A DNA stretch of 64,000 bases from Eledone cirrhosa (Eukaryota), in NCBI GenBank assembly GCA_964016885.1, contig OZ024751.1, positions 49,228,001 through 49,292,000 of the forward strand, in the 5' to 3' direction. Positions 17,497-41,904 of this stretch are shown here, in pieces (position 1 is the first letter of the stretch; each line of letters starts with the position of its first letter). The position numbers were made by a program, and so were the translations under genes. The notes beneath the pieces are model-generated. The model saw nothing but the letters and a program-made list of their open reading frames with translations. It was not told where the DNA came from and made no database searches.

Positions 17497-17688
17497 AACG
17501 AAGGAAATGTGGTAATGAACCAGATGGACCATAACGCACCAAAGTACTCAATACTTAGGGTAGTAGAGTGGGTAATAGGAACGAGTAGGACCCCGACGGC
17601 TGAGCTCAAGCCGTTTCGACGGCTAATTCTGCTAGAATTAGCCGTCGAAACGGCTTGAGCTCAGCCGTCGGGGTCGTACTCGTTCCTA
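17497..17688 (-). mobile_element. Short hairpin-plus-tail element (half-hammerhead family), copy 1
   Basis: Hairpin 17576-17688 plus an ~80-bp tail. Each arm reads GAAAC GGCTTGAGCTCAGCC GTC GGGGTC. It has (TA)n on both sides and homologues at 27783, 41724 and 45994. Confidence 0.85.
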
Positions 17689-19199
17689 TATATATATATA
17701 TATATATATATATATATATATATATACTTATACACACATATATATACACACATACACACATATATACATATATATACTTACATATATGTGTGTGTGGGAG
17801 GGGTGTACTTAATATGATTGGTCAATATTTGCTTTGATTTATAATGTGGCTTCTAATTGATACTAATACATGCTAGAACGAGTGAAAAGCCATATTTCAA
17901 AAACTAATACCTCTGGGGAAGATTTATTCAACATTGATAGTAATAATTCTCCCAAACGTCAAATACTTTATATCAAAATCAAAGAAAACTAATATTTGCT
18001 AAATGCAGACATTTCGTTAGGTTTCGTTTTTGTTTCTTTTGTTTCTATTTTTTTTTTGTTTGTTTGTTTGTTTGTTTCTTCCATCGAAATACGTTTTACT
18101 AAATCCTTTCATGGAATGATTTCACGGAATATTCAAACATATTAGTGTCATTAGAAACATAATAGTTTGCCATAACACGTCAGTTTTTTAGTGCACATTT
18201 AACTATTGAGATGGTGTGTACTACTAATAACGAAGCTATGATGTTATGACTTCAATCGAAATATTTATACTCGAGGGGTAAAATTCACATTTACTTCCGT
18301 TCATTGATAGCCTTTTATTATATGAAGCTTAGTCACCTTGTACTCAGCAACACAATCTAACATATGTATGTGTAGAACGGGAGTATTATAGTATTAAGTA
18401 TCATGCCAATGAATTAAATTAAGACCTGTGGTTGTTTTAGAATGTATCAATTAGGATATTTGTTTAAGATCATTAACCGAATAACTTCATTCGTTGTCAT
18501 GAAACAAGTTGATATAACAAAAACCTGGGGAGTGGTAATTGACACAGTATCACACATTACATTACTGTTATATATATTATTGTCTTATGTCTTTGAACCC
18601 TTAACTACTTTTAGTCTTAGGGGGACAGTCACCATTTAGCAAATATTAATTTGCTTTGATTTTGATAGTAATTATCTGAGTCTTGGGAGAATAATCTATA
18701 TATTATAGCTCATCCTTCTCCAGATTTGGACACAGCGATTTCTTCTAGGCAAAGAGAAAGTTCGAAAGATAAATACGAAGAAGAATCAAACCCAGTACTT
18801 GACTACTAATAATATTTATAGAAGACGAAATGATGAAAGGCAAAGTTGATCACGACGGGATTTGATCTCAAAGTCCTGATAACCAGAAGAAATAACACAA
18901 AGGATAGACATAGATAAATGTATGAATAGATCTTTATGTTGTACATATATATTACAATAACATCTCACAATAACACCTTCATATTGCTTCTTTTATCTTA
19001 TTGACAGTGGAAGAAAGGAATATGAAATGAACTCCAAAGGAAATTTGATTTCTAATTCGTCACGGTCCTTTTTCTATTAAATAACACAATTGCAACAAAA
19101 ATAACAATCATATTATTCCTGAAAATATTGCAAATATTAGGAACAAAATCAGGATCTCGTCATCTGCCACTCAATCTTCCCTAGAATATCAATATCAAC

Positions 19200-19625
19200 A
19201 CATCACCATCGTTATCATCATCATCATCATCAGCATCATCGTCGTCGTCATCGTCATCATCATCAGCATCAACATCATCATCATCACCATCACCATCATC
19301 ACCACCACCAGCACCACCACCATCACAACAATCACCATCCTCGCCATCATTATCATCAGCATCACCACCACCACCACCACCACCACCACCACAACTCCCC
19401 GCACCACCACCACCATCATCATCATCATCGCCGTCATCATCATCATCATCATCATCACAGATCATCATCACCACCACCACCACCATCATCATCATCATCA
19501 TCATCATCATCCTCATCATGACCATCATCATCCTCACCATCACCATCATCATCATCATCAGCAGCAGCAGCAGCATCATCACAGATACATCAACAACAAC
19601 AACAACAACGACCATAACGAGCATC
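19200..19625. repeat. Compound (CAT)/(CAC)/(CAG) microsatellite
   Basis: Directly visible. Confidence 0.95.
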
Positions 19626-21375
19626 ATATATAAAGTTCGACCCTCATATTAATAACATTGTCGAGATTCTTCTTTTCATCATTTTACATTTTCAATTTTA
19701 TATTGATTACAAATACATTAGTGATTCAATGTTTATATATATATATATATATATATATATATATTTATATAAATATATATAAATATAAATATATATATAT
19801 ATATATATATATATATATATATATATATATATATATATATATATATATATATATAAATATAAATATATATAAATATAAATATATATATATATTTATATAT
19901 ATATATATAAATATATATATATATATATATAAATATATATATATATATATATATATATATTTATATATATATATATAAATATATATATATATATATATAT
20001 ATATATATATATATATATATATATATATATATATATATATATATATATATATAAATATAAATATATATATACATAAATATATATATATAAATATATATAT
20101 ATATATAAATATATATATATGTATATATATAAATATATATATAAATATATATATATATATATATATATATATATATATATATATATATAAATATATATAT
20201 ATATATATTTATATAAATGGATGTATTTATTTAGAATTTCATTATCTTTTCAATGTTATATATTTATTAGGTTTACAATATTGTTGCAGTGACATTAGAA
20301 AATCGTTGATTTTGTATTTTGATTTTTTTTTTTTTTTTGGTTTCAACCCAAACGACATGAATTGGCCCTTCATAACAAAAGCAACTTTCTAATTTCCTGT
20401 TTGTCTTCCGGATTTCGCACTCCCCCCCTGCTCTCTCTCTCTCACTCCTTCTCTCTCTCTCTCTCTCTCTCTCTCTCTCTCTCTCTCTCTCTCTCTCTCT
20501 CTCTCTCTCTTCTCTCTCTCTCCTTCTATTTCTTTCTATCACCATTTCTCTCTCTTTCCCCCCCTCTCTCTCTCTCTCCTGCTATCTAACTGTCGCCTCT
20601 ATATCTTTCTTTCAATCATCGTATCACACTCTATTTCTTTCAATCTCTCTCTCTCTCTCTCTCTCTCTCTCTCTCTCTGATACACAGTTGCAGAGTATCT
20701 CACACAAAATGACACAAACTCAGCTATACGTACACATGCACACACACCCATAAGCATACAAACACACAAACACACACACAAATACACAGACGCAAAGTAT
20801 CCCACTATTCCTGTAAATTCTGTCTTATCTGTCTATCGACATATTTTTTGTTTCTTTATCTACATATATATATATATGCTCTCCCAAAGTATAACAATAT
20901 ATATATATATATATGTGTGTGTGTGTGTGTGTGTGTGTGTGTGGCCGCTTGTATGTGTGTATGTGTGTGTGTGTCTTTGTGTATGCTAAGTATACTGATA
21001 TTCGCCACTAACTTCAGGGATTAAATGAATATGGATGTCACCTCTCTTACGGCACAAATGCATACACACACAGACCTCACACACACGCACGCACACACAC
21101 ACACACACACACACACACACACACACACACACACACACACACACACACACACACACACACATACACACATATATATATATATATACATATAAACGCACTC
21201 CCATTGGCAATACACCCAGTCACACCAATGTATGAGAAGCTCTCTTCATTGTCCGACTTTGCACTTGAATTTTGCATTTACCAACGCAATACAGATATTC
21301 TATTTTCAGATGTATTTATGAACCACTATAAACTGTAATTACACACCTACTTTATCCTCTTACTATTTATCACTC

Positions 21376-39486: not shown

Positions 39487-40375
39487 CTGCAATAAATAAT
39501 TTATGAGAGTTTACGGATACAAGAATCCTCAACTTCTGCATTATTGGCCATGAGCAACCAGAACAGAGTAGATAACGAATAGGAATACAAAAAACAATAA
39601 ATACACTGCCAACACAGAAAGCATTACTAAATATCACAACCTACTGTCACCAGCCACTCCGGATTCATCATCCCCTAAATAAACTCCACAAGGTTGAAGA
39701 CCAGAACCAGCACAACTACCACCTTCAACATCACCCTCTCTACTATACGCAACAGCAACAAAAACACCAAAAACATGTTAGCCATTAGTAGAAATTTAAT
39801 ATATTTTGTTAGCTTCAAGGCAAAATATACCAGGAATAATAATTTATAGAGATACATAGAAATTGAAATCTCAAGAAACTAGGAAATTATCAAGTAATTA
39901 TCTGTTTTTTCGAATGTTTGCAGAAATGTTTCTGAACCAAATACTATCACCATTATTACAACTACAACAACAAACCACAACTAGAACAGCAACAACAACA
40001 CATTATTGATATTACAACTAGGGAAACAGACCACTCATATAACAGCGACAAGATCACACCAGCAATATTATAGCAACAGACTACCGCCATAACACACTAA
40101 CACTATTACTACAATAACAACTACAAGAATACACATTACACGTCCGCAGTTACAATAACTAACCCAACTAAGTGACATACCACCACAACGATTACACCAC
40201 CTACCACAAATAAGACAACTTCTACCTCAACAACACCTCCTACCACTACAACACCTACCACAACAACAACTCCGACCACTACAACACCTACTACAACAAC
40301 AATTCCTACCACTACAACACCTACTACAACAACAACTCCTACCACTACAACACCTACCACAAACACAAGGAAACA
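39487..40375 (+). pseudogene. Possible decayed Thr/Pro-rich mucin-like exons
   Basis: Acceptor-like sites end at 39486 and 39923. ACN/CCN codon runs vary at the third position, giving PTTTTPTTTTT (33-bp unit) at about 40185-40368. There are in-frame stops upstream. Confidence 0.4.
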
Positions 40376-41723
40376 GTTAAGGAAGAATGCATCGTTCGTT
40401 TTTGTTTTGCATTTGAAAAGGTGTTTTAAGCTTGAAATATGTTGAAATATAATGGGTAACAAAAATATTACTTCGTATTTTTTTTTTTTTTTGTATTTCT
40501 CATCCTTTGTCCTTTATATATTTCTACCGCATTGTACTGGCTTTCTGAACTCCTTGCCAATCATCTACGACATATCTCACAATGCATCGTATTAAGTAAA
40601 CTATTGTAAGCATAGATGTATAGATATGTAGGGAAGTAGACATATTGATCGATACGGAAAAGCTTAATTCGATACCCAATATTAAAGTGAGAGCAAATAT
40701 GTTAAAACTGCCTCGGTATAAAATATTCTTCCCTGCGTCGGAATTCTTTTATATTATCCTTCATATTTTCATCAACCTTCATACTTTCTATATTTGCATA
40801 TCTCTCGCAATTTCCCAATTTCTTCACCCCACTTTTCCTCCCTATTTGTTCCCCTATTTCACCGAAAATATATATTAATCTCGATTAAAAATGAATAAAC
40901 GTAAAAAGTTAAAATCCAGGAAAGATATATACGGTGCAAAAAGAAAACAATTATATTAAATATATATTTCTTTTTTTTTTACCATTACACATCACGTTGT
41001 TCAGAATATCGAAAATAGGAAATAATCGCCTCTAACTTTTATTTACATCAGTAGATATAATTGGCGAAAATAATATTTGAAATTATTAATTTATATGTTC
41101 GCAAATATTTACAGCCCCTTTGAACAACTGCTTTAAAATATTCTGACCATAATAGATCGTAGGAAACAGTCATATATTAATTTATTTCAGCAAAATTTAT
41201 TTCCCTTTCCAATTTCACTTGCAAATATATTGATGGTTATATTGTACGAGTATTTTTATGTTCAGGCCAGGCCAGGCCAAACCTATTTAATCAATTATAC
41301 AATAAACCTTGTTCTATTTGTGACAGTACTAAGGTAAAAAAAAAAAAAAAAAAAAAAGGGCTATACAGCACTAACTAGTGTGGCATTCACCCATGCATGC
41401 ATATCCACTCTTTCCACGGTGCTGATTGTGTCCAAAGGAAAGGCAAATGTCGATACATTTTGGCAATTATTGGACGTTAATAGTGAAACAATAAAGTGCT
41501 TCCCCCCGGAAACAACCTGCCAGCAAACTGAGAAATGAATTTCACGATCGTTAAAACGTGAGCTCATGACCCTAATCACAAACTCATGCACATTCCTACA
41601 CACACATGCACACACTCACGCACTCACACATACACACTCCACTCATGCACATACACACACAAACACACACACATATATATATATATATATATATATAGAG
41701 AGAGAGAGAGAGAGAGAGAAATT

Positions 41724-41904
41724 GTCAGGACCCCGACGGCTGAGCTCCGCCCGTTTCGACAGCCAGATCTAGCTGTCGAGACGGCCTCAGCTCAGCCGTC
41801 AGGGTCCTGACTCTTTTCCTATTACCCACTCTACTACCCTAACTATCGAGTCCTCTGGTGCGTGCGTTATGGTCCACCTGGTTCCTTACCACACCTTCCT
41901 TCGT
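41724..41904 (+). mobile_element. Half-hammerhead hairpin family, copy 3 (opposite orientation, diverged)
   Basis: Hairpin 41724-41811 plus the tail ttcctattacccactctactaccctaa...ttccttcgt, then (TA)n. Confidence 0.82.

What the first reader, a model, noticed from the sequence alone, without database searches (positions are those of the whole stretch)
17497..41904. Dispersed family mirrored exactly inside hammerhead stem II (half-ribozyme palindromes)
Seen: three copies (17497, 27783, 41724) each read hairpin-GAAAC-stem III (GGCT...AGCC)-GTC-GGGGTC-tail. Where CUGANGA should be there is instead a mirror image of the 3' half. The fold point is always the same GAC.GC hairpin, but loops and short-arm lengths differ. 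Inference: either cDNA repeatedly self-primes on stem II, so the ribozyme structure dictates the truncation site, or this is a ~190-bp non-autonomous element that keeps only the substrate half and could be cleaved in trans.
Basis: partly seen in the sequence, partly recalled or inferred. Interest (0 to 1): 0.75.

Follow-up and report, generated by a model that had tools for sequence, protein, structure and literature searches.

The report
Mirror stubs mark Penelope RNA start
These 190-base mirror repeats, over 15,000 in this animal genome, are stubs of a Penelope-type jumping gene that carries a hammerhead-shaped RNA, and their centres likely mark the capped start of its RNA, where two separate copying reactions likely ran off and were joined.

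Summary
The three copies are real, but they are not a stand-alone element. They are the shortest insertions of a ~3.5-kb Hydra-clade Penelope-like retroelement (PLE) found elsewhere in the genome: 43,968 tail matches, 15,671 short mirrors, 5,489 full hammerhead cores, mostly the U3-A8 variant. The mirror centre is not fixed and not in stem II. Arms end in a ~15-nt window of loop II, with 76 different junctions in 89 copies. The junction predicted by stem-II self-priming occurs 0 times, and either arm can be the longer. Ends peak at the A of an initiator-like TTAGT/TCAGT, often with an extra C (both arms: C 241, T 7). Likely reading: two cDNAs start at the element's two internal sites, run off the capped mRNA 5' end and are joined. 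No RNA data test this, and 4 of 5 full-length copies run past that point. The scan found Hydra ends and two-armed PLE insertions before on other DNA of this genome; the cap/start reading was not among the notes I saw.

The parts
17498..17631 (-). Copy 1 long arm: 3' half of the hammerhead plus 78-bp tail; begins at the distal start site; RNA sense is the minus strand
   Evidence: matches parent L135 positions 1-135 at 94%
17498..17575 (-). Copy 1 one-sided tail, the stretch between the two outer ends
   Evidence: same two ends in most copies
17634..17689 (+). Copy 1 short arm: stem II 3' strand, GAAAC (17647), stem III, GTC (17667-17669), stem I 3' strand; ends at the proximal start site next to (TA)n
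17626..17638 (.). Copy 1 junction inside loop II: long arm 6 nt and short arm 5 nt past stem II, with 2 inserted bases
   Evidence: (row L031)
27784..27915 (-). Copy 2 long arm with tail, ending 4 nt into loop II
27915..27961 (+). Copy 2 short arm, starting inside the stem II 3' strand
41764..41904 (+). Copy 3 long arm with tail, divergent subfamily (82% to parent L135)
41720..41763 (-). Copy 3 short arm
45991..46031 (-). Lone 41-bp short-arm fragment of the divergent subfamily beside (TA)n

Best explanation
The palindromes are the shortest insertions of a Hydra-clade Penelope-like retroelement, and each is likely made of two separately primed cDNAs that likely ran off the capped 5' end of the element's mRNA, which is predicted to lie inside loop II of its hammerhead. 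Steps: (1, shown) the parent has RT, linker and GIY-YIG domains, direct pLTRs with a full type I hammerhead fold, and inserts in (TA)n. (2, from the anole PLE work, inferred here) the enzyme nicks both strands of the target and starts copying at two internal RNA sites 78 nt apart, which gives the long and short outer ends. (3, inferred) RNA polymerase II starts at an initiator-like TTAGT/TCAGT in loop II, so the mRNA begins with only the substrate half of the ribozyme, 61 and about 140 nt upstream of the two start sites. (4, inferred) both cDNAs run off there, often gaining a C opposite the cap and extra A's, and are joined head to head with small trims, microhomologies or templated inserts. 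(5, inferred) longer copies come from templates that continue through the core (circle, tandem or read-through RNA) and truncate at scattered points.
For: Parent and domains. Fixed outer ends: 133 of 143 short arms end at one site next to TA-like sequence; 86 of 89 long ends have TA; loose (TA)n ends at 4082 and 4162 of L135. Inner ends cluster: 147 of 180 arm ends at or before the initiator A, 30 within 5 nt beyond, 3 further, peak at 9-10 nt past stem II (limited to junctions up to 40 nt); summed contig depth drops about 20-fold across loop II. Extra C: 23 C against 3 T among 100 listed arm ends (counted by eye); both arms C 241, both T 7; inserted base is C in 12 of 14 ends at that A against 16 of 61 elsewhere, p 6e-5, and 11 of 15 against 18 of 56, p 0.007, in an overlapping set; parents have A or G there, 70 of 70 variants. 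A divergent subfamily with a different loop II keeps TTAGT at the same place, and L053, L060 and L155 end at the same 9-10 position. Independent arms: long further 39, short further 35, equal 15; long copies whose short arm holds 1-3 kb absent from the long arm (L284, L308, L313, L332); 3 of 134 copies have arms from two subfamilies differing at 2 sites. Literature: PMC11167929 (two internal starts equal the tail ends, both strands extended, dimer predicted), PMC2377424 (internal promoter in Penelope), PMC10290830 (TCAGTT initiator in Drosophila).
Against: No RNA data; the start site and cap are inferred from DNA only. 37 of the 50 listed double-C junctions can also be read as templated inserts beginning CAG or CCAG; only 13 of 50 cannot (by eye). 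C is also common after ends at positions 4, 6, 7 and 9. About a sixth of arm ends pass the proposed +1 by 1-5 nt, and ends at 4, 6, 7 and 9 are as common together as ends at 10. 4 of 5 full-length copies run through the upstream core and 1 (L332) stops ~20 nt short of +1; none stops at +1, so a simple linear-mRNA model for long copies fails. Arms are concordant in 101 of 134 copies, which fold-back also predicts. I saw no DPE-like motif at the usual spacing (sequence reading; consensus recalled). The initiator consensus is from Drosophila, not molluscs.
Confidence: 0.6

Rival explanations
1. Same two-cDNA origin, but the enzyme stalls or falls off at the folded ribozyme (extended stem II or a bound protein) on a longer RNA; extra bases are ordinary terminal additions and end-joining inserts.
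For: The main subfamily folds an extra hairpin in loop II that spans the end window. Many arms also stop earlier within the ribozyme. Full-length copies can pass the site. Most double-C junctions have a templated reading.
Against: GC-rich stems I, III and II are passed first. The divergent subfamily folds loop II differently yet ends at the same 9-10 position. C is enriched at that position.
Confidence: 0.2
2. The RNA 5' end in loop II is made by cutting (nuclease or small-RNA slicing), or long palindromes lose their centres after insertion by hairpin processing and repair.
For: Seamless run-through in 4 of 5 full-length copies fits a longer precursor. Junctions show microhomology and templated inserts.
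Against: Deletion gives no reason for a ~15-nt hot spot or for the extra C; copies that pass the core end at scattered points over 3.5 kb.
Confidence: 0.09
3. One cDNA folds back and primes on itself (first reader's idea, on stem II; Arkhipova et al. 2013 proposed self-priming for PLE head-to-head palindromes).
For: High arm concordance; near-perfect palindromic centres occur; proposed in PMC3846280.
Against: Stem-II fold-back junction: 0 matches. Short arm reaches further in 35 of 89, by 3 nt or more in 23. Neither arm is a subset of the other in many long copies. A few copies have arms of two subfamilies. It does not explain the fixed short end.
Confidence: 0.07
4. A ~190-bp non-autonomous element that keeps the substrate half and is copied as a unit.
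For: The 30 best BLAST matches to copy 1 look uniform; 21 selected copies share one junction.
Against: That set was selected by similarity. Unselected: 47 junctions in 50, 76 in 89; the same simple junctions occur in different subfamilies; a length continuum to full length shares the same outer ends.
Confidence: 0.04

Closest known systems
Hydra clade of C-terminal EN+ Penelope-like elements (Craig et al. 2021, PMC8557442; section 11, passages, supplement search)
   Same: RWR, DKT, CxCX5C linker, C-terminal GIY-YIG without CCHH, CxxC and CxH, hammerhead, (TA)n targets, inverted truncated copy and one-sided tail
   Different: ~3.5-kb unit with long 3' UTR (theirs generally under 3 kb); 78-bp tail (30-40 bp described); the listed Hydra-1_Obim hammerhead is a different sequence and two marker motifs of this family are absent from the supplement text held; no inner-end hot spot in the passages read
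Poseidon element of the green anole, in vitro (Frangieh et al. 2024, PMC11167929; parts 1-2 of 4 read)
   Same: Two internal start sites defining the tail; AT-rich target; both strands extended; ribozyme cleavage not needed for insertion
   Different: Different clade; the parts read do not map the transcription start or describe double run-off palindromes
PLE hammerheads with U3-A8 core and long helix II, Schistosoma Cercyon (Cervera and de la Pena 2014, PMC4209133; part 1 of 4 and passages)
   Same: U3-A8 covariation, long helix II with an unpaired base, ribozyme pairs on opposite strands; circular template proposed
   Different: Here stem III is a 5-6-bp hairpin rather than minimal, loop II is 37-39 nt, and most copies keep only the 3' half
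Head-to-head PLE palindromes in Adineta vaga (Arkhipova et al. 2013, PMC3846280; passages)
   Same: Inverted pLTR junctions with palindromes; initiator-like motif noted in a pLTR
   Different: Explained there by self-priming on an antisense template; the arm statistics here favour two separate cDNAs
Non-LTR retrozymes (bioRxiv 10.64898/2026.07.22.740005; part 1 of 5 read)
   Same: Type I hammerhead, PLE-related, non-coding copies
   Different: Retrozymes are tandem units with complete ribozymes; these are inverted stubs with half a ribozyme and no sign of a master

Membership tests
EN+ Penelope-like element (parent) | Single ORF with RT and C-terminal GIY-YIG endonuclease | tested here: met
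   660-710-aa frames in L135 and L137 with YRDD, then IYQ..AYIG; 244 homologues at E<=0.001. Assigned by motif; Pfam and PDB gave no hit. The copies read have frame breaks.
EN+ Penelope-like element (parent) | Direct pLTR (partial tandem), inverted 5'-truncated copy, one-sided tail | tested here: met
   L133, L135, L272, L326
Hydra clade | RWK-type motif, DKT, CxCX5C linker, no CCHH, CxxC and CxH | tested here: met
   RWR (L137), DKT, CNCPDRSIC, CNLC, CKH; one Cys in the GIY-YIG core against the definition
Hydra clade | Insertion into (TA)n | tested here: met
   86 of 89 long ends, 133 of 143 short ends
Hydra clade | Phylogenetic placement with reference Hydra RTs | not tested
   No reference set was fetched and no tree was built
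Type I hammerhead (parent) | Three stems around the core, GAAA and NUH site | tested here: met
   Minimum-energy fold of L135 gives the three-way junction, z 0.06; 88.9% of cells paired, 3 stem II pairs changed on both sides, 15 hand-picked rows. Folds of four other variants show stem II but not the full junction. No Rfam hit.
Type I hammerhead (parent) | 3-8 core pair | tested here: met
   U3-A8 in 81 of 100 listed; C3 with A8 (mismatch) in 19 of 100; the pattern required A8
Type I hammerhead (parent) | Self-cleavage | not testable with these tools
   Needs an in vitro assay
Type I hammerhead (the three window copies) | Complete core in cis | tested here: not met
   5' core and stem I and II 5' strands absent
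Non-autonomous element or retrozyme | Copied as a unit from a master; tandem units with complete ribozyme | tested here: not met
   76 junctions in 89 copies; length continuum
Polymerase II start site in loop II | Capped RNA 5' ends at the initiator A | tested here: inconclusive

The most novel reading that the evidence does not exclude
The element starts transcription inside its own ribozyme, so the mRNA carries a split hammerhead: substrate half at the capped 5' end, complete ribozyme at the 3' end. The 3' catalytic strand cuts the 5' half, the unit closes into a circle, and only circles give long and tandem copies. Uncut capped mRNA gives the 15,000+ double run-off palindromes, a genomic record of the start site, of cap copying and of a two-enzyme insertion complex.
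Probability: 0.25. Interest if true: 0.8.

Novelty: new variant of a known kind. Interest (0 to 1): 0.5.

Why it matters
How PLEs, the closest relatives of telomerase RT, form their tandem and inverted insertions is open (PMC8557442, PMC11167929). The element class, the inverted arm with a one-sided tail and the U3-A8 core are all in print. What this family adds is a sample of over 15,000 junctions that argues against self-priming and for two separate cDNAs, and that points to one nucleotide as the RNA 5' end. That gives a single-experiment prediction (5' RACE or CAGE) and a concrete role for the ribozyme that can be tested in a tube. It also warns that such stubs can be mis-filed as SINEs or MITEs.

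Tried and rejected
A looser CTGANGA search gave 12 hits, all junction or flank coincidences. Rfam: no hammerhead in the window or on the parent. Pfam and PDB: no hit for the ORF. Sequencing runs: no RNA holder listed; runs X5 and X6 held only 2 and 4 contigs and were not used as evidence. One search used a mis-registered structure and is replaced. Helentron/MITE, tRNA-SINE and parvovirus-like hairpin readings were dropped once the RT parent was found; tRNA scans were not run. A splice acceptor in loop II was considered, but ends right after the first AG are uncommon (5 of 180) and no shared upstream exon appears in the inserts. Loci L001-030, L061-072 and L231-245 were left out because they were picked by junction sequence. 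Searches for a prior description of the run-off/cap reading returned none, within a library that lacks most subscription papers; cap copying by RT is recalled knowledge and one search gave no usable citation.
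Full report
Observation. The three copies are present. Each has a long arm with a ~78-bp tail and a short arm, with (TA)n or related simple repeats outside. The genome is 3.0 Gb in 1,796 contigs; no tool names the species, and earlier scan notes call it octopus-like. A 15-mer of the tail has 22,061 + 21,907 exact matches against 6 for the control. Short mirrors with up to 30 nt between the stem II strands number 15,671, control 0.

The parent. Copies picked by the tail alone included unmirrored ones (L040, L049, L054, L059). 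Extended, they give a ~3.5-kb unit with an RT (DKT, YRDD), a CxCX5C linker, a C-terminal GIY-YIG without CCHH, then CxxC and CxH, and RWR near the N terminus. These are the features that define the Hydra clade (PMC8557442 section 11). The protein has 244 homologues at E<=0.001 among 7,995 scored candidates, 35-55% identical among the 120 listed; Pfam and PDB gave nothing. Full copies show direct pLTRs, an inverted truncated copy and a one-sided tail, the layout described for PLEs. The Hydra-1_Obim entry in the supplement has a different ribozyme (one supplement bundle searched, not read whole).

The ribozyme. The parent pLTR holds stem I, core, stem II with a 37-39-nt loop, GAAAC, stem III, GTC and stem I. 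The core pattern has 5,489 matches, control 0; of 100 listed, 81 are U3-A8 and 19 have C3 with A8. The L135 copy folds as a three-way junction but is no more stable than shuffles (z 0.06); four other variants fold stem II but not the full junction. On 15 hand-picked rows 88.9% of cells pair, against 27-53% when slid, and three stem II pairs change on both sides. Rfam does not detect it. U3-A8 cores and long helix II are known in PLEs. Cleavage is untested.

Where the arms end. Outer ends are fixed: 133 of 143 short arms stop at one site followed by TA-like sequence, 86 of 89 long ends border TA, and contigs show loose (TA)n at the same two places. In the anole PLE the two tail ends are the two internal start sites, and both target strands are extended. 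A small hairpin follows each end by 4-6 nt in this family's sequence (lead from earlier notes); the distal one lies in the ORF leader, so a long arm likely needs a template in which the tail runs on into the leader. Inner ends vary. Of 110 position-picked copies, 50 have both arms ending in loop II, 9 pass the core, 38 have a long arm that stops before or lacks a clear stem II, and 13 have other forms. In several of the asymmetric ones the short arm still begins near the same loop II point. Among 90 junctions, 147 of 180 arm ends lie at or before position 10 past stem II, 30 at 11-15 and 3 beyond (junctions limited to 40 nt). Copies that pass the core end at scattered points.

Fold-back on stem II would keep the whole loop between the arms; that junction has 0 matches for the three main loop variants. 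The long arm reaches further in 39 copies, the short in 35, equal in 15, and long copies often hold kilobases in the short arm alone (read from BLAST maps; L332-L345 were picked by their short arm). Arms share a subfamily haplotype in 82 of 119 and 101 of 134 copies, against 0.19 expected for random pairs; 3 of 134 have arms from two subfamilies differing at two sites, and L169 is a mosaic within its long arm. So the arms mostly come from one RNA or sister RNAs, sometimes from two. A 190-bp master is unlikely: 76 junctions in 89 copies.

Why loop II. Position 10 is the A of TTAGT or TCAGT, like the Drosophila initiator TCAGTT; Penelope has an internal promoter. An AT-rich, TATA-like stretch lies ~30 nt upstream in the main subfamilies but not in the divergent one (consensus recalled). 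The divergent subfamily keeps TTAGT, and L053, L060 and L155 end at 9-10 despite a different loop. After position 10 parents have A or G (70 of 70). Arm ends show C 23, T 3, G 13, A 61 of 100 listed (by eye). Both arms carry C in 241 places and T in 7. An inserted base is C in 12 of 14 ends at position 10 against 16 of 61 elsewhere, and 11 of 15 against 18 of 56 in an overlapping set. An extra C is what copying a G cap would leave (recalled knowledge). Caveats: 37 of 50 listed double-C junctions also read as templated inserts; the other 13 of 50 scale to about 60 places against 7. C is also added at other positions. No RNA run was listed.

A result against the simple model. Five copies span the ORF and reach the upstream pLTR. 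Four run through the core without a seam (L133, L135, L272, L326) and one stops ~20 nt short of the proposed start (L332). Long copies therefore likely use another template. A circle made by ribozyme cleavage, as proposed in PMC4209133, fits; a start inside loop II would then require the 5' half to be cut by the 3' ribozyme's catalytic strand, or a read-through precursor. That is the novel case and is untested.

Comparison and verdict. It is a Hydra-type PLE by every motif tested (no tree), with a known insertion layout and a precedented core variant. Similar two-armed stubs of other families are common in the fetched loci, and the scan reported Hydra ends, twin hairpins and two-armed insertions on other DNA of this genome; none of the 16 notes shown mentions a cap or start-site hot spot. 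Self-priming is the published explanation for such palindromes; my paper searches found no double run-off account. Papers seen: PMC8557442 passages, section 11, supplement search; PMC11167929 parts 1-2 of 4; PMC4209133 part 1 of 4 and passages; PMC3846280, PMC13282606 and PMC10290830 passages; PMC2377424 passages and section 15; bioRxiv 10.64898/2026.07.22.740005 part 1 of 5 (supplements not seen). Confidence: PLE stub origin about 0.95, two separate cDNAs about 0.85, capped start as the cause of the hot spot about 0.6. Interest 0.5.

Noticed in passing
window 24271-27454: A second, broken Hydra-type PLE (about 41% amino-acid identity to the parent) on the minus strand, with its own long-stem-II hammerhead-like motif near 24390-24515 and an inverted arm at 27288-27454
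   Followed up: partly
window 27536-27690, 45566-45930, 17290-17460; L004, L026, L030, L041, L044, L116, L182, L195, L238, L251: Other families with an arm-fold-arm layout beside (TA)n, many with a one-sided tail holding a GAGTGCT or GAGCAC-like motif; 27536-27690 has relatives in about 20 loci
   Followed up: partly
L135:4000-4190 (minus): Two small similar hairpins, one 6 nt after the short-arm end and one 4 nt after the long-arm end; seen in the sequence, only partly recovered by the minimum-energy fold
   Followed up: partly
L040, L104-L132: A subfamily with C3 facing A8 in the core (19 of 100 listed) has spread anyway, so cleavage may be dispensable or supplied in trans
   Followed up: no
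L042, L035, L258: Junction inserts copied from the nearby stem II sequence, like iterative templated end-joining
   Followed up: no
L015, L090, L141, L267: Copies with tails on both arms or nested double palindromes
   Followed up: no
window 56727-60185: 1,153-aa LINE-like frame with endonuclease and RT-like sequence; a related RT fragment at 4885-5838 (family recalled, not searched)
   Followed up: no
window 46270-48000: 37-bp tandem array, about 49 copies at 95-98% identity
   Followed up: no
window 3-1122: Perfect 560-bp inverted repeat next to an N gap, possibly an assembly artefact
   Followed up: no
L139, L140: Another PLE-like RT and GIY-YIG family (Neptune-like by recall) and RTE-like LINE fragments
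   Followed up: no
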